Shown: one piece after another, positions 33,706-60,412 of the stretch
How the letters are laid out: every line of letters starts with the position of its first letter
How positions within the stretch are numbered: position 1 is the first letter of the stretch
Virus record (IMG/VR): IMGVR_UViG_3300009408_000003
Location: 56,328-120,327 of that record
From: a virus
Reading direction: 5' to 3' (one strand)
DNA: 64,000 nucleotides
Position numbers and translations under genes: made by a program
The notes under the pieces: generated by a model
Seen by the model: only the letters and a program-made list of their open reading frames with translations
Told to the model about the DNA's origin: nothing
Database searches by the model: none

Positions 33706-35325
33706 TTATATTTCGATGGTTTCTATTTCCTTAATTAATTTAGTATAACCTTTAGAGTTAATTTCAATTATATCAAATATTCTTTCAGACCATCCAGCAA
33801 TTTGAGTAACGTTTAATGCTCTATTAAAGACTGATTTTCCACCGGTTGCTCGTATGTTTACTGAAACAGTATTACATTTAGGGTTTATTAATTTAAATTT
33901 TTTAAACAATGATTGAAATGTTCCTAATCCTGCTCTTGATGAATAATCCCATCTACCTTCACCACCATGTCCAATAACCATATCAGAAAATATAACTAAA
34001 TTATCAACTTTAGTTTTATTTTTAATAACGTCACGCAAGAAGTAATACAACCCATTTTCAGTTGCTCCACCACAATTTCTACCCATTTTAAATGAATCTC
34101 TATTATGTTCTAATAATCCTTTTGTTCTATCCATTGGTACTAATATTAATCTATCGCCAAATAATCCAACATATACATTTTTTTGAGAATATGCTAACAT
34201 TGAACCAAATAGGTTTCCAATCATTGCAGTTGTAGTTTTTGAAAATGCTGATACCTTACTTGAACCGCCACCATCACCACGTACTGAACCGGAGTGGTCA
34301 ATTAATACTGCAGTATTACCTTCTAACATTGGAATATTTTCAACTGAATATTCTAAAGCTGTTTCTAGTCCTTTCAATATTTTAGTTTTAAGTTCATCCA
34401 TGTTTGGTATTGTATCGCCTTCAAACACAATTTTACTTTTGTTATATTTAGAAACCCCAACCTTTTCAATTTCAGTATATGCCGATGCAAATCTGAATGG
34501 TAATAATTTTGATTTTAATACCTTTCTTTTGTTAGTTAATTGAGATACTGCTTCATCAACTTTATTTGGAGCTAATGTTAAAATGTTTCTTAGATTTCTA
34601 ACTAAATTCATCATAGGCATACCTTGTACATTTTCAATCACATTTGTAATTGCTTCTTTTTTGGTTTCCTTAACATCTTTTCCGGTTTCTTTAGCTGTTT
34701 TACCAGCTTTAGTCATTTCTTTTTCAAAGATTTTAGATGAATATAATCCGTCTAAAGATTCGCCATTCATTAATCTTTTGTATGCTTCCGCATTAACTTG
34801 TGTACCTTTTGGGTGCATTAAGTTAACTAAATCAACTAAAGAAATTTCTTTCTTCTCCATTTTGTATTTATCAATTAAATATGGATCTAATGATTCCAAT
34901 TTTAATTTGAATCCTCGTTTAATTGAATTAGCAATTTTTGTACTTCCTTTTGAGAAATAATAAGCTAAGATTTCACTCATATCATCTGGTCTTTGTGCGA
35001 TTTTTTTATAAAATCTTGAAGCATATGATTTTCCGGATAATCTTGGTGCTAATTCTCCTGATAACAAGTGAGTAACAGAACGCATGTGTGAATCATGTCT
35101 TAAATACAATGCAAATTTAGCAACAAATTTTTCATCAACCTTTTTTATTGCTTCTTTAATTCTATTTACAATTTCATTTTCACTTTCGTAATATGAACGT
35201 TGTAAAAAGGTAGTTAAACAAGTTGCTAACAAATCTTCTTTTGCAGTTAGTTTATAAGCTTTTTCACCCATTTCATTTATAGTAGTTGGTACTACTTTTG
35301 GTTTTCTTTTGTTAAATTTTGACAT
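33706..35325 (-). CDS. rsr: Ro60/TROVE-domain RNA-binding protein with C-terminal vWA domain
   Basis: 539 aa; INEMGEKAY, FALYLRHDSHMRS, QRPDD, LLPFRF, MIDAS-like LIDHSGSV, IFSD, GWSERIF. Confidence 0.93.
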   Translation of the reverse strand: MSKFNKRKPKVVPTTINEMGEKAYKLTAKEDLLATCLTTFLQRSYYESENEIVNRIKEAIKKVDEKFVAKFALYLRHDSHMRSVTHLLSGELAPRLSGKSYASRFYKKIAQRPDDMSEILAYYFSKGSTKIANSIKRGFKLKLESLDPYLIDKYKMEKKEISLVDLVNLMHPKGTQVNAEAYKRLMNGESLDGLYSSKIFEKEMTKAGKTAKETGKDVKETKKEAITNVIENVQGMPMMNLVRNLRNILTLAPNKVDEAVSQLTNKRKVLKSKLLPFRFASAYTEIEKVGVSKYNKSKIVFEGDTIPNMDELKTKILKGLETALEYSVENIPMLEGNTAVLIDHSGSVRGDGGGSSKVSAFSKTTTAMIGNLFGSMLAYSQKNVYVGLFGDRLILVPMDRTKGLLEHNRDSFKMGRNCGGATENGLYYFLRDVIKNKTKVDNLVIFSDMVIGHGGEGRWDYSSRAGLGTFQSLFKKFKLINPKCNTVSVNIRATGGKSVFNRALNVTQIAGWSERIFDIIEINSKGYTKLIKEIETIEI

Positions 35326-37188: not shown

Positions 37189-37197
37189 ATATTATTG

Positions 37198-37325
37198 GTA
37201 AGGGAATATTTAAAAGAGTGTCATTGTTTAAAAACGCAGGGTCGAATCTGCTACCTTTTATTTTGAATATAAATGCTCTACTATGAGCTAATTTTTACGA
37301 AGTACCTCTGTTTATTACCACTTGC
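37198..37325 (-). ncRNA. Y-like RNA A: conserved stem enclosing a tRNA-like core with UCA anticodon
   Basis: CAAGTGGTAA..AGAGGTACTTCG-[TAAAAAT, D arm GCTC/GAGC, TTTAT-ATTCAAA-ATAAA, imperfect T arm, GTTTTTA]-ACACTCT..TTCCCTTA. Confidence 0.65.
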
Positions 37326-37384
37326 CGATATTTTAAAGAACGTTTTTGTTTCTTAATTCATATTGAATAGAAAAACATTTTTTG

Positions 37385-37740: not shown

Positions 37741-37869
37741 ATTTATTTTTTAAAAAATTAAACATTGTTGTAAACTACGTTAGTAGTATCAGGAATATTT
37801 TCACTGGGTTTCCTGTTTTTATGCCAGATTTATTTTTTATAATTTCATACTGAAGTATGATTTTTTAAA

Positions 37870-37941
37870 AATAAGAGAAATTTGTAATGAGTGTTTTTTT
37901 CATTTAGACAATCGAAGTAACTCATTTACTTACTACTTATT
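37870..37941 (-). ncRNA. Y-like RNA B: minimal stem-only member
   Basis: AATAAG-TAGTAAGTAA-ATGAGT-TACTTCG..ACTCAT-TAC-AAATTTCT-CTTATT. Confidence 0.65.
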
Positions 37942-37953
37942 TATATTTTATTG

Positions 37954-45922: not shown

Positions 45923-46145
45923 ATTTTGTTAATAAATATTAAAAATATAAGTAAACCTTCGTTTCTCACATTTATTTTTAGCTTTCCATGAGGGACTCTA
46001 ATCCTATATTTAATTCTATCAATTATATCAACTAAATTGACCATATTTAATGGTATTAAAGAATTATTTCCCAGTATATTATTGATGTCGTACATCTTTA
46101 AACGTTGCAGATATACAGTTTCTCAATACACAGAATATTTTGCAG

Positions 46146-46216
46146 TGGGCCAGGTAGGGATCGAACCTACTCGCTAGAATTTTACAGATTCGGCCGTTAC
46201 CTTAACTGTCAGACCC
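46146..46216 (-). tRNA. tRNA-Tyr(GTA), short variable loop
   Basis: CGAAT-CTGTAAA-ATTCT; no long arm. Confidence 0.8.
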
Positions 46217-46285
46217 ATAATCATTGTTTCGGGTACAATGAAAAAAACCTTTATATAATTCATACCAACGGTATAAATTTAAAAA

Positions 46286-46427
46286 ATTAAGAGAAAGATT
46301 AGGTGAGTATTATTGTTTGTTTTCAATTTTCAAGATTGATACCTTAACCATTTGACTTATTTCCCCAACGGGAAATATCGGACTCGAACCGATAAATACG
46401 AAGTAACTCATTCTATTACTACTTAAT
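46286..46427 (-). ncRNA. Y-like RNA C: conserved stem enclosing a circularly permuted tRNA-Ser(UGA)
   Basis: ATTAAG..ATGAGT-TACTTCG-[ATCGG-TTCGAGT-CCGAT; ATTTCCC-GTTG-GGGAAAT; D arm; TCAAT-CTTGAAA-ATTGA]-ACTCAC..TTTCT-CTTAAT. Confidence 0.8.
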
Positions 46428-46560
46428 TATTTTTTCATTTTTCTACCAAGTCGAAATCCTTTTGGGATTTCATCGCCTCGATATATTTTTTTACTTATTG
46501 TTTCGTTTGTAATCCAACAAGTACCAAATTGAGAATTGTTAATATCAATTTGTTTACTTT
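46427..46560 (-). pseudogene. Homing-endonuclease C-terminal remnant 2
   Basis: NSQFGTCWITNETISKKIYRGDEIPKGFRLGRKMKK*. Confidence 0.65.
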
Positions 46561-46922: not shown

Positions 46923-46934
46923 AAATTAAATAAA

Positions 46935-47083
46935 ATTCAAGAGAAAGATTAAGAGAGTATGATTGTTTTAAAATCTCGCCATACACTTTATATTATTAGT
47001 GGTGAGAATTGATATCGAACCAACATTTAACATTTATGAATTGGGAGTTTCCGAAGTAACTCTTACTTATTAGTACTTAATTC
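46935..47083 (-). ncRNA. Y-like RNA D: conserved stem enclosing a T-arm and an acceptor-like hairpin
   Basis: AATTAAG..AAGAGT-TACTTCG..GTTGG-TTCGATA-TCAAT, TCTCACCA/TGGCGAGA..ACTCTC..TTTCT-CTTGAATT. Confidence 0.7.
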
Positions 47084-47090
47084 TATTTAG

Positions 47091-48263: not shown

Positions 48264-48601
48264 ATTTTTAGTCTTTCCTAACGTCAAACACACGTCCAAT
48301 TTTACTCACGTGGAAGAAACCACGTTAAAGAACCTCTACTTACCTGTCTATGTTATACAAGCGTTGTAAGTACACCGAGTTACAGGATGATAATTTATAC
48401 TCACTATTATATGTTTATCTGCAGTTACATATAATATCCATCCTTGGATAACATCTTTAATATTTTTTATCAAGTACCGACTACCACAATTACGGAAATT
48501 CTCCAGCTCCATGCTGGTGGTTTTTGTTTGGGTACGGATTAAACTATTGATAACCCCAATAATGTTGTGAAAACAAGTTAAAAAACTTATTAACATCAAA
48601 G

Positions 48602-48689
48602 CAGAAGGAGTGGGACTCGAACCCACACGACTGTTACATCAAACTGTTTTCAGGACAGCTACCCTTAGACCGACTTGGTTTACCCTTCT
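48602..48689 (-). tRNA. tRNA-Ser(TGA)
   Basis: CTGT-CCTGAAA-ACAG, long arm, G73. Confidence 0.9.
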
Positions 48690-59248: not shown

Positions 59249-60412
59249 TTATCCTTTTAAAACAGCTAATGGTTTCAATTCTACAAATATTTCAACTAAG
59301 TCTTTTTGATTTTCCATTACAGTATCAATATCCTTATAAGCACTTGGTGCTTCATCTAGTTGTTGTTTAGTTTCAATGTTATGTATAATTCCACTCATTA
59401 ACTTTTGTTCTTTCTTTAAATCTAATTCTCTGATAGCTTGCTTTCTTCCCATCTTTCTTCCTGCTCCGTGAGAACACGATTTAAATGATTCATTGTTTCC
59501 TAAACCTTTTACAATATAAGATTTAGTGCCTTGTGATCCTGGAACTATTCCTAATTCATTTTTATAAGCTCTTGTAGCTCCTTTTCTATGTACTAAAACA
59601 TTTCTGTTAAAATGATTTTCCCATGCAACAAAGTTATGAGATTCATTTATGATATCGCATTCGAACGAAGTTTCCATAACGGTATTAAACGCTTCTTTCA
59701 TTTTATCAAGCATCAAGAATCTATTTTGTTTCGCAAACTCAACACAATAATTCATTTCTTTAAAGTAGTTATTAGCATAATCTGTATTTAATGGTAAGAA
59801 TGCTAATTCTAAATTTTTAGTTACACTAGAAAAATAAGTTTCATTTAATTTAATTGCAACATCGTTATAATACTTAGCTGTCTTATATCCTAGATTTCTC
59901 GAACCAGAATGTATCATTATCCATATATGACCATCAGAACCTTTTTGTATTTCAATGAAGTGGTTACCACCACCTAAAGTTCCTATTTGCACTTTGGCTT
60001 TATCATAATTTTGGTTAATTATTTCAAATTCATCATTTGGTCTTTCAGGCATAAACCCAGTATAACTTTGGTCTTTTTCGTGCCAGTTAAAACCGACAGG
60101 AATTAATTCTTTAGCCTTTTCTACTATTTTTTGTAATTCTTCTTTTGATATATCGGTTAAGTTGGTCTTAACAGCACACATCCCGCAACCTATATCTACC
60201 CCTACTGCGTTAGGAACAACAACTCCCTTAGTCGCTAAGACAGCTCCGATTGGCATTCCATACCCTTGATGCGAATCAGGCATAATAGAAATGTGTTTAA
60301 AAGCAAAAGGTAAGTTTGCTAGATTTTTAGCTTGTTCTAAAGCGCCATCTTCAATATCATCTAACCATAATTTGATTGGTAATTTTTCTGTTGTAACATA
60401 TTTTTTAGCCAT
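59249..60412 (-). CDS. rtcB: RtcB RNA 3'-phosphate ligase
   Basis: MPDSHQGYG, VGVDIGCG, GTLGGGNHF, IHSGSR, HRKGAT, SCSHGAGR, YKDI. Confidence 0.97.
   Translation of the reverse strand: MAKKYVTTEKLPIKLWLDDIEDGALEQAKNLANLPFAFKHISIMPDSHQGYGMPIGAVLATKGVVVPNAVGVDIGCGMCAVKTNLTDISKEELQKIVEKAKELIPVGFNWHEKDQSYTGFMPERPNDEFEIINQNYDKAKVQIGTLGGGNHFIEIQKGSDGHIWIMIHSGSRNLGYKTAKYYNDVAIKLNETYFSSVTKNLELAFLPLNTDYANNYFKEMNYCVEFAKQNRFLMLDKMKEAFNTVMETSFECDIINESHNFVAWENHFNRNVLVHRKGATRAYKNELGIVPGSQGTKSYIVKGLGNNESFKSCSHGAGRKMGRKQAIRELDLKKEQKLMSGIIHNIETKQQLDEAPSAYKDIDTVMENQKDLVEIFVELKPLAVLKG

What the first reader, a model, noticed from the sequence alone, without database searches (positions are those of the whole stretch)
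46321..46393. Complete circularly permuted tRNA-Ser(UGA) inside Y-like RNA C
The order is T arm (ATCGG-TTCGAGT-CCGAT), acceptor 3' strand ATTTCCC, discriminator G plus TTG loop, acceptor 5' strand GGGAAAT, D arm, then anticodon arm TCAAT-CTTGAAA-ATTGA; the carrier stem replaces the variable arm (seen). YrlA RNAs have T-AS-D order without an anticodon arm, and permuted tRNA genes in red algae and archaea mature by opening the acceptor loop (established). This RNA could be a full tRNA decoy for anticodon nucleases, or mature into a two-piece tRNA-Ser whose long arm is the carrier stem (inference). A normal Ser(TGA) also exists at 48602.
Basis: partly seen in the sequence, partly recalled or inferred. 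Interest (0 to 1): 0.8.

Follow-up and report, generated by a model that had tools for sequence, protein, structure and literature searches.

The report
Phage Y RNA carrying whole permuted tRNA
A phage small RNA that partners the RNA-surveillance protein Ro60 carries a complete tRNA look-alike, anticodon arm included, wired back to front; the same design recurs in about 30 other large phages with many different anticodons, so it is a real and seemingly undescribed tRNA mimic but not a serine tRNA.

Summary
On the minus strand, 46393-46323 reads T arm, closed 7-bp acceptor hairpin, D arm, then a 5-bp/7-nt anticodon-type arm, set inside a long bulged stem (about 46428-46281).

It is not chance. 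A covariance model finds 30 distinct homologues in phage tRNA arrays at 64-97 bits. All four helices covary. The Levitt pair 15:48 is A:U in 17 and G:C in 13, with no exception. U33 and R37 are kept.

Rearranged in silico into normal order, 24 of 24 are called tRNAs by ARAGORN; none is called in native order.

The RNA tracks Ro60. A TROVE gene is present in 24 of 29 records, and in 10 of 10 near-complete ones. It is on the same strand in 25 of 25.

"tRNA-Ser" is not supported. Orthologues carry 13 different anticodons, and their discriminator bases look unrelated to the anticodon. Acceptor loops are often stable tetraloops.

Best reading: a YrlA-superfamily Y RNA whose tRNA mimic is permuted at the variable loop instead of the anticodon loop. 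It probably stays closed and uncharged, acting as anticodon-specific bait. The function is inferred.

Rfam YrlA does not detect it, and I found no description of it in the papers I could search. This scan has noted related tRNA-Y chimeras on other DNA.

The parts
46281..46428 (-). Whole Y-type RNA 'C' (about 148 nt): terminal bulged stem, internal loop, tRNA-like domain, then a U6 run
   Evidence: Duplex of the 5' and 3' flanks has the same pattern in 30 homologues. The outer stem is predicted by RNAalifold with compensatory changes. The ends are inferred, not mapped.
46406..46428 (-). 5' strand of the carrier stem. It includes the conserved AAGUAGUAA (46424-46416) and the inner-helix strand UGAGU (46410-46406).
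   Evidence: The inner helix covaries across homologues (GAGU/ACUC, AAGU/ACUU, GCGU/ACGC, GACU/AGUC, AACU/AGUU, GCCU/AGGC).
46394..46406 (-). Conserved UUACUUCG (46406-46399) plus a short linker ending at the position-48 equivalent (46394)
   Evidence: UUACUUCG is kept in 28 of 30 homologues and differs at one base in the other two. It matches the YUAY that opens the V region of YrlA (PMC4201824). Base 46394 covaries with base 15.
46377..46393 (-). T arm: 5-bp stem with a UUCGAGU loop
   Evidence: 100% paired in the family; the loop is near-invariant.
46359..46376 (-). Acceptor stem closed into a hairpin: 7 bp, loop GUUG (46369-46366)
   Evidence: All 7 pairs show changes on both sides in the family.
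46340..46358 (-). Positions 8-9 (AA), D arm (3-bp stem, loop with A14, A15, GG) and A26
   Evidence: The GG and A14 of the D loop never change.
46323..46339 (-). Anticodon-type arm: 5-bp stem, 7-nt loop CUUGAAA, triplet UGA at 46332-46330
   Evidence: RNAalifold predicts it independently. It is 99% paired, and all 5 pairs carry double changes. Y32, U33, R37 and A38 are conserved while 34-36 vary.
46287..46322 (-). A/C-rich 3' linker (46322-46309), then the 3' strand of the carrier stem (ACUCA 46308-46304 ... CUCUUAA 46293-46287)
46281..46286 (-). Run of six U directly after the terminal stem; possible 3' end
   Evidence: Sequence. A T-run follows the stem in about half of the homologues. The terminator scan did not call it, because the stem has few G-C pairs.
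33706..35325 (-). Ro60/TROVE gene, same strand, 11 kb downstream of RNA C
   Evidence: Pfam PF05731, 52.5 bits.
59249..60412 (-). RtcB RNA ligase gene, same strand
   Evidence: Pfam PF01139, 356.6 bits.
48601..48689 (-). Ordinary tRNA-Ser(UGA) of the phage
   Evidence: ARAGORN and Rfam tRNA. Its anticodon arm differs from that of RNA C.

Best explanation
Element C is a phage-encoded Y RNA: a small non-coding partner of the phage's Ro60 protein, belonging to the wider YrlA lineage.

Its two ends pair into a long bulged stem, the presumed Ro60 handle. From an internal loop of that stem hangs a complete tRNA-shaped domain. The chain enters at the variable loop, runs through the T arm, a 7-bp acceptor stem closed by a 4-nt loop and the D arm, then through a true anticodon stem-loop, and leaves again at the variable loop.

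It is thus a tRNA permuted at the variable loop. Published YrlA is the same body permuted at the anticodon loop, and therefore lacks that loop.

Shown here:
- The four helices.
- The tertiary pairs of an L-shaped fold.
- The anticodon-loop signature.
- The linkage to Ro60.

Inferred:
- In this copy the acceptor end stays closed, so the RNA is not charged and does not decode.
- It works as an anticodon-specific tRNA mimic held on Ro60.
- Most plausibly it is bait or a competitive inhibitor for host factors that read the anticodon loop, such as anticodon nucleases.
- It may also recruit the Ro60, RtcB and exonuclease repair-or-decay machinery to such sites.
For: Structure:
- CM R1 scores the window copy at 91.6 bits and finds 30 distinct homologues at 64-97 bits. 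The next tier scores 59 bits or less and consists of tandem-tRNA junctions or other Y types.
- On an unfitted MAFFT alignment 94% of cells pair. No shuffle reaches the observed covariation (0 of 500). Sliding the partners drops pairing to 27-51%.
- RNAalifold finds the T, acceptor and anticodon arms and the outer stem on its own.

Tertiary pairs:
- 15:48 is A:U in 17 and G:C in 13, with no exception.
- 26:44 is A:C in 16 and G:U in 11.
- U8:A14 holds in 28 of 30.

Anticodon loop:
- Y32 in 29 of 30, U33 in 28 of 30, R37 in 30 of 30, A38 in 27 of 30.
- Positions 34-36 change 11, 11 and 9 times on the tree, against 2 each for positions 33 and 37.

tRNA shape: after rearrangement into normal order ARAGORN of 24 as tRNAs, and 0 of 24 in native order.

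Ro60 link:
- TROVE is present in 24 of 29 records and in 10 of 10 that are at least 90% complete.
- It is on the same strand in 25 of 25 and within 4 kb in 19 of 25.
- The window encodes TROVE and RtcB.

Closed acceptor: loops of 3-4 nt, or UUCG/GCAA tetraloops on 6-7-bp stems, occur in many copies.

Against: - No expression, end-mapping or binding data exist.
- The window copy lies 11 kb from Ro60, not beside it.
- The window copy has A8, a weak D stem and a thermodynamically favoured competing hairpin.
- The published Ro60 motif GNCGAAN0-1G is absent from the 5' strand.
- Rfam YrlA (RF02553) gives no hit at this place even at E <= 10.
- Eight of 30 acceptor loops begin N-CCA, and the stem is exactly 7 bp. 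[quoted passage not shown] Some members may therefore be opened.
- The decoy role is pure inference. No anticodon nuclease was identified, and the anticodon shows no clear relation to the phage's own tRNA set.
Confidence: 0.6

Rival explanations
1. Two-piece or re-joined working tRNA. RNase P opens the acceptor loop, the 3' end is trimmed and receives CCA, and the two pieces stay together through the carrier stem (or the linkers are cut and RtcB re-joins them). The product would be a chargeable tRNA that decodes UCA or another codon set by its anticodon.
For: - The acceptor stem is exactly 7 bp and the T stem 5 bp. That is the RNase P determinant which lets M. smegmatis YrlA be cut and CCA-tailed in vivo (PMC4201824; 10.1101/312249).
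- Eight of 30 acceptor loops start with N-CCA followed by a 5-7-nt spacer. About 0.5 would be expected by chance.
- The anticodon-loop signature is kept, and the anticodon is conserved within clades: UGA in 4 of 5 members of the window's clade.
- The phage encodes RtcB.
Against: - The window's loop is only GUUG.
- Sister copies have 6-bp stems capped by UUCG, GCAA or UUUA. Other copies have UUCG or GCAA on 7 bp, which are hallmarks of hairpins meant to stay closed.
- CCA is lost between near-identical relatives (L050 against L013).
- The base in the discriminator position did not appear to track the anticodon. I compared the list by eye with E. coli identity rules from memory and did not tally it.
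- Most anticodons duplicate an ordinary tRNA of the same phage.
- No bulge-helix-bulge junction is present, and no splicing endonuclease is known in phages.
- This copy has A8 instead of U8.
Confidence: 0.12
2. Generic Ro60 tether with no anticodon-specific role. The tRNA body only recruits an elbow- or acceptor-binding enzyme, as proposed for YrlA. The anticodon arm is a structural leftover of a dimeric-tRNA ancestor, kept for folding.
For: - YrlA works without an anticodon loop (10.1101/312249).
- Some phage relatives replace the arm by a GNRA-capped hairpin (L064, L201) or lack it altogether (L117, L208).
- Triplet positions 34-36 change about as fast as unconstrained loop bases.
- N-CCA plus spacer loops and the tRNA-Leu-like UUACUUCG look like relics of a tRNA dimer.
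Against: - A mere spacer would not keep a 7-nt loop with Y32, U33, R37 and A38 in 27-30 of 30 copies.
- The anticodon is kept within clades across much divergence elsewhere: the window and L006 have identical arms but different acceptor stems.
- One phage carries two copies with the same T and acceptor arms but different anticodon arms (L177). This looks like diversification by anticodon.
Confidence: 0.2
3. Decayed remnant of two adjacent tRNA genes (the 3' half of one and the 5' half of the next) with no function of its own.
For: Tandem tRNA junctions give the same order of elements and are the known false positives of such searches (PMC4201824).
Against: - The acceptor strands are kept complementary through compensatory changes in all 7 pairs.
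- The unit is conserved in 30 phages.
- It always sits in the same conserved carrier stem and travels with Ro60.
- Junctions score 59 bits or less, against 91.6 bits for this element.
Confidence: 0.02

Closest known systems
YrlA (Y RNA-like A; Rfam RF02553; Chen et al. 2014 PMC4201824; structure in Wang et al. 2018, 10.1101/312249)
   Same: - Encoded with Ro60, on the same strand.
- The ends pair into a stem.
- A conserved YUAY (here UUAC) lies before the T arm.
- The order is T arm, closed acceptor stem, D arm.
- The tRNA tertiary pairs are present, including a covarying 15:48.
   Different: - YrlA has no anticodon loop. Its Ro-binding stem continues the anticodon stem.
- Here a full 5-bp/7-nt anticodon arm is present, and the carrier leaves from the variable loop through unpaired linkers.
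- The 5' motif GNCGAAN0-1G is replaced by GUAGUAA or GUAGCAAG.
- The Rfam model does not detect this RNA.
M. smegmatis YrlA
   Same: It has a 7-bp acceptor stem. That RNA is cut by RNase P and CCA-tailed in vivo (PMC4201824), which is a precedent for opening the loop.
   Different: It has no anticodon arm. Whether the phage RNA is cut at all is unknown.
D. radiodurans Yrn1
   Same: It can be drawn with a T arm and a possible 5-bp 'anticodon arm' (PMC4201824).
   Different: - Its loop has 6 nt, not 7.
- It has no full D arm and no V region.
- Its elements run in a different order.
- Its effector is PNPase.
Circularly permuted tRNA genes of Cyanidioschyzon merolae and Thermofilum (Soma 2007; Chan 2011, as cited in 10.1101/312249)
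   Same: The 3' half precedes the 5' half, and the acceptor strands are joined by a short loop.
   Different: - Those break in the anticodon, D or T loops (from my own knowledge).
- They carry a bulge-helix-bulge junction, are circularised, and mature into working tRNAs.
- Here the break is in the variable loop, and the termini form a conserved Ro60-type stem.
Phage Y-like RNAs Yrl1 and Yrl2 of Thermus phage phiLo (PMC12135203)
   Same: They are phage-encoded RNAs next to a phage Ro60, and were shown to bind it.
   Different: No tRNA-like domain is described for them.

Membership tests
YrlA-type Y RNA | Encoded near a Ro60/TROVE gene on the same strand | tested here: met
   Window: TROVE at 33706-35325(-), RNA at 46428-46281(-), 11 kb apart. 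Relatives: same strand in 25 of 25, within 4 kb in 19 of 25.
YrlA-type Y RNA | 5' and 3' ends pair into a stem carrying the Ro60 site | tested here: met
   A conserved bulged terminal stem with compensatory changes. Binding itself was not tested.
YrlA-type Y RNA | GNCGAAN0-1G motif near the 5' end | tested here: not met
   The 5' strand reads AAGUAGUAA at that place. Bacterial relatives found with the same downstream motif do carry GGCGAAGG there.
YrlA-type Y RNA | Conserved YUAY opening the V region just before the T arm | tested here: met
   The UUAC of UUACUUCG never changes across the 30 homologues. The same 10-mer plus T arm is found in YrlA-like loci of many bacterial phyla.
YrlA-type Y RNA | T arm, closed acceptor stem, D arm, with tRNA tertiary pairs | tested here: met
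YrlA-type Y RNA | No anticodon loop; the Ro stem continues the anticodon stem | tested here: not met
   A separate anticodon arm lies at 46339-46323, and the carrier joins at the variable loop.
YrlA-type Y RNA | Reaches the Rfam RF02553 gathering score (69 bits) | tested here: not met
   No match at this place even at E <= 10. The best match in the genome is 19 bits, elsewhere.
YrlA-type Y RNA | Binds Ro60 | not testable with these tools
   Needs co-immunoprecipitation or a gel-shift assay.
Functional tRNA-Ser | Cloverleaf with free 5' and 3' acceptor ends, detected as a tRNA | tested here: not met
   ARAGORN finds none. Rfam tRNA gives 23.7 bits against a cut-off of 29, through the 5' half only. 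It is called tRNA-Ser(tga) only after in-silico rearrangement.
Functional tRNA-Ser | Serine identity: a long helical variable arm and G73 conserved with the anticodon | tested here: not met
   The carrier joins through 12- and 14-nt unpaired linkers. Orthologues carry 13 different anticodons. Within the UGA clade the base in the discriminator position varies.
Permuted tRNA gene (matures into a tRNA) | 3' half before 5' half, acceptor strands joined by a short loop | tested here: met
Permuted tRNA gene (matures into a tRNA) | Bulge-helix-bulge junction at the termini and a circular intermediate | tested here: not met
   The termini form a long Y-type stem with single-base bulges and a large internal loop, with no BHB. 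Processing itself cannot be tested here.

The most novel reading that the evidence does not exclude
These RNAs are true permuted tRNA genes of phages. The acceptor loop would be opened by RNase P and given CCA, and the pieces would be held by the carrier stem or re-joined by the phage's RtcB. The result would be chargeable tRNAs whose supply is gated by Ro60. This would be the first permuted or split tRNA system outside algae and archaea.
Probability: 0.08. Interest if true: 0.9.

Novelty: new variant of a known kind. Interest (0 to 1): 0.66.

Why it matters
Y RNAs are the poorly understood partners of Ro60. In bacteria their tRNA-like domain has no known ligand.

This subclass carries a full anticodon arm. 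The loop shape is conserved, but the triplet differs between phages and stays the same within clades. That points to a ligand which reads the anticodon. The long-standing guess that YrlA competes with tRNAs for a nuclease becomes directly testable.

The RNA also looks like a missing link for the proposed origin of YrlA from a tRNA dimer. It has a T arm and acceptor 3' strand, sometimes N-CCA plus a spacer, and then the acceptor 5' strand, D arm and anticodon arm.

It adds a new RNA component to the tRNA-protection toolkits of large phages, alongside tRNA arrays and RtcB.

Tried and rejected
- blastn of 46100-46500 against 50,697 phage records: no match.
- Rfam at gathering score and at E <= 10: only a sub-threshold tRNA half-match. 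YrlA (RF02553) gives no hit.
- Single-sequence folding: uninformative (z = -0.99), and the minimum-energy fold disagrees with the cloverleaf.
- The anticodon arm as a cassette copied from the cognate tRNA of the same phage: rejected. The best match to the same-anticodon tRNA differs at 4-9 of 17 positions.
- The mimic filling a gap in the phage tRNA set: no pattern. By my count from the ARAGORN lists, about 7 anticodons are also present as normal tRNAs and about 4 are absent.
- A remnant of tandem tRNAs: rejected by covariation and by score separation.
- C-type copies in cellular genomes: among the first 100 of the 120 fetched bacterial or archaeal loci carrying the motif, only two contigs with phage features scored high. 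L255 lies in a tRNA array. L295 has the same length as the jumbo-phage record G023. One Chthoniobacteraceae contig was intermediate at 51 bits.
- Promoter and terminator scan: nothing above shuffles.
- The supplement of Chen 2014 and the 2020 Annual Review were not available. I could not check whether any of their 22 phage YrlAs has this arm.

Full report
**What is there.**
- The window is the last 64 kb of a 120-kb IMG/VR virus record with 28% G+C.
- It holds a minus-strand array of 31 tRNA genes and a GOLLD RNA.
- It also encodes a Ro60/TROVE protein at 33706-35325 and an RtcB ligase at 59249-60412, both on the minus strand.
- On the minus strand the finding reads exactly as described:
  - T arm 46393-46377.
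  - Acceptor 3' strand, GUUG loop and acceptor 5' strand, 46376-46359, with 7 perfect pairs.
  - AA, then the D arm 46356-46341, then A26.
  - A 5-bp/7-nt hairpin 46339-46323 with loop CUUGAAA.
- The flanks pair into a long bulged stem (about 46428-46406 with 46308-46287), followed by six U.
- No ORF of 40 aa or more covers the core.

**Is it more than chance?**
- On one sequence alone the case is weak:
  - ARAGORN finds nothing.
  - The Rfam tRNA model gives 23.7 bits through the 5' half only.
  - The fold is no better than shuffles.
  - The minimum-energy fold replaces the D and anticodon arms by another hairpin, -19.6 against -10.7 kcal/mol.
- The comparative evidence decides it.
- Pattern scans of IMG/VR seeded on the conserved 5' motif brought in many phage loci.
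- A covariance model (R1) then separates 30 distinct homologues at 64-97 bits, the window copy scoring 91.6. Everything else scores 59 bits or less, being tandem-tRNA junctions and other Y-type RNAs.
- On a plain MAFFT alignment:
  - 94% of cells pair.
  - 17 of 20 pairs show changes on both sides.
  - No shuffle reaches the observed covariation (0 of 500).
  - Sliding the partners drops pairing to 27-51%.
- RNAalifold predicts the T arm, acceptor hairpin, anticodon-type arm and outer stem on its own.
- The anticodon-type arm is 99% paired, with 6-13 double changes at each of its five pairs.
- Ascertainment caveat. My first parser required this arm. However, among T-arm-first RNAs chosen only by the 5' motif and the T arm, about two thirds have it (my count). 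My rough estimate for chance is a few per cent.

**It is a tRNA shape, not just four hairpins.**
- The base just 5' of the T arm pairs with D-loop base 15 as a Levitt pair: A:U in 17 and G:C in 13, with no exception. The switches fall in several clades.
- Base 26 and the base just 3' of the anticodon arm covary: A:C in 16, G:U in 11.
- U8:A14 holds in 28 of 30.
- The D-loop GG and the T loop never change.
- The chain therefore enters and leaves the tRNA body in the variable loop.
- Rearranged in silico, 24 of 24 are called tRNAs by ARAGORN at default thresholds. None is called in native order.

**The anticodon loop.**
- Y32 is kept in 29 of 30, U33 in 28 of 30, R37 in 30 of 30 and A38 in 27 of 30.
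- The triplet takes 13 values: CAU in 6, UGA in 4, GCA in 3, UAU in 3, and others.
- On a tree built without the loop, positions 34-36 change 11, 11 and 9 times, against 2 for position 33 and 2 for position 37.
- Yet triplets persist within clades. The window, L006, L178 and L196 all have UGA, although their acceptor stems differ.
- One phage (L177) has two copies with identical T and acceptor arms but different anticodon arms.
- The arm is not copied from the cognate tRNA of the same phage.
- Taken together, 'tRNA-Ser' is only a reading of the triplet.

**Acceptor end.**
- Loops are of two kinds.
  - Short caps, including UUCG and GCAA tetraloops. Three members of the window's clade have 6-bp stems.
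  - Longer loops that begin N-CCA followed by 5-7 nt, in 8 of 30 copies.
- The CCA loops are scattered over the tree and are lost between near-identical relatives (L050 against L013).
- I read them as relics of a tRNA-tRNA junction. A 7-bp stem is, however, what lets M. smegmatis YrlA be cut by RNase P and CCA-tailed (PMC4201824).
- The window's GUUG loop favours a closed hairpin.

**Link to Ro60 and to YrlA.**
- TROVE is found in 24 of 29 records that carry the RNA, and in 10 of 10 that are at least 90% complete. The five without it are fragments.
- Wherever both are present they share a strand (25 of 25), and in 19 of 25 they lie within 4 kb.
- UUACUUCG before the T arm is kept in 28 of 30 copies, and its UUAC never changes. 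UUAC corresponds to the YUAY that opens the V region of YrlA (PMC4201824).
- The same 10-mer plus T arm retrieves canonical T-AS-D YrlA-like loci in Bacteroidota, Verrucomicrobiota, Actinomycetota and other phyla. Some of these carry the published GGCGAAGG motif at the place where the phage RNAs read GUAGUAA.
- Published YrlA 'lacks the anticodon loop', and its Ro stem continues the anticodon stem (10.1101/312249).
- Rfam's YrlA model does not see the phage RNA.
- I file it as a new variant within the YrlA lineage, not as a member of RF02553.

**Mechanism.**
- Shown:
  - A conserved, tRNA-shaped, closed-acceptor domain.
  - An anticodon loop under shape selection.
  - Attachment to a conserved bulged stem.
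  - Genetic linkage to Ro60.
- Inferred:
  - Ro60 binds the stem.
  - The domain engages a factor that reads the anticodon loop.
- The most economical candidate is a host tRNA-targeting nuclease, with the RNA acting as bait or inhibitor. Reasons:
  - The phage's tRNA array and RtcB.
  - The same suggestion already made for YrlA (PMC7790460).
  - Triplets that are specific to clades yet diverse between them.
- I put the structural and family statement at about 0.85-0.9. The closed, uncharged mimic is at about 0.6. The specific decoy role is at about 0.3.

**Prior knowledge.**
- Full-text searches found no description of Y RNAs with a complete anticodon arm.
- Earlier notes of this scan report related tRNA-Y chimeras on other DNA, and a Felix O1-type phage with a 'scrambled tRNA' on the same handle. 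I used them as leads only.

Noticed in passing
window 46146-46216 (-): A tRNA-Tyr(GUA)-like gene just downstream of RNA C. Rfam tRNA gives 27.7 bits, under the cut-off of 29, and ARAGORN misses it. The array otherwise has no tRNA-Tyr, so this may be the phage's odd tRNA-Tyr, with a short variable region and a weak D arm.
   Followed up: no
L234, L268, L272 (genome contigs) against window 46408-46399: The 10-mer AGUUACUUCG that precedes the T arm in these Y RNAs is also the 5' half and loop of the long variable arm of bacterial tRNA-Leu(CAA) in three phyla. This hints that the V region of YrlA descends from a class II tRNA.
   Followed up: partly
L177:7535-7630 and L177:11434-11529: One phage contig carries two C-type RNAs flanking its Ro60 gene. 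Their T and acceptor arms are identical, but their anticodon arms differ (CAU and GCA).
   Followed up: partly
L064, L201, L200, L117, L208, L095 (viral contigs): Sister architectures sit on the same handle. In some the anticodon-arm position holds a GNRA-capped hairpin. In some there is no arm, giving the canonical T-AS-D order. Some have only the T arm and acceptor hairpin.
   Followed up: partly
L270:5748-5848 (Chthoniobacteraceae MAG contig): A G+C-rich YrlA-like RNA with a 7-bp hairpin after the D arm and a loop that can be read CUCGUAA. It scores 51 bits with R1, the only intermediate seen outside phage-like contigs.
   Followed up: no
window 37190-37335, 37860-37950, 46925-47090 (-): Three more RNAs share the same handle. 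A carries a whole tRNA-like body in normal order. B carries no cargo. D carries a T arm plus a long imperfect hairpin.
   Followed up: partly
window 33706-35325 (-): The nearest Ro60 proteins among isolated or named phages are in the uncultured gut phage cr111_1 (56% identity) and in csAssE-Sib (52%). The latter is annotated with ring and muzzle structural proteins. This points to a crAss-like relationship or a Bacteroidota host, rather than the T4-like marine phage of earlier notes.
   Followed up: no
L009, L172, L176, L219 (viral contigs): Related phages carry suppressor-type tRNAs with anticodons CUA, UCA and UUA. Two C-type mimics also have the UUA triplet. This may connect to stop-codon recoding.
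   Followed up: no
window 46453-46471 (-): A perfect 7-bp hairpin with a CAAAA loop about 25 nt upstream of the 5' end of RNA C, inside a mechanical 55-aa ORF.
   Followed up: no
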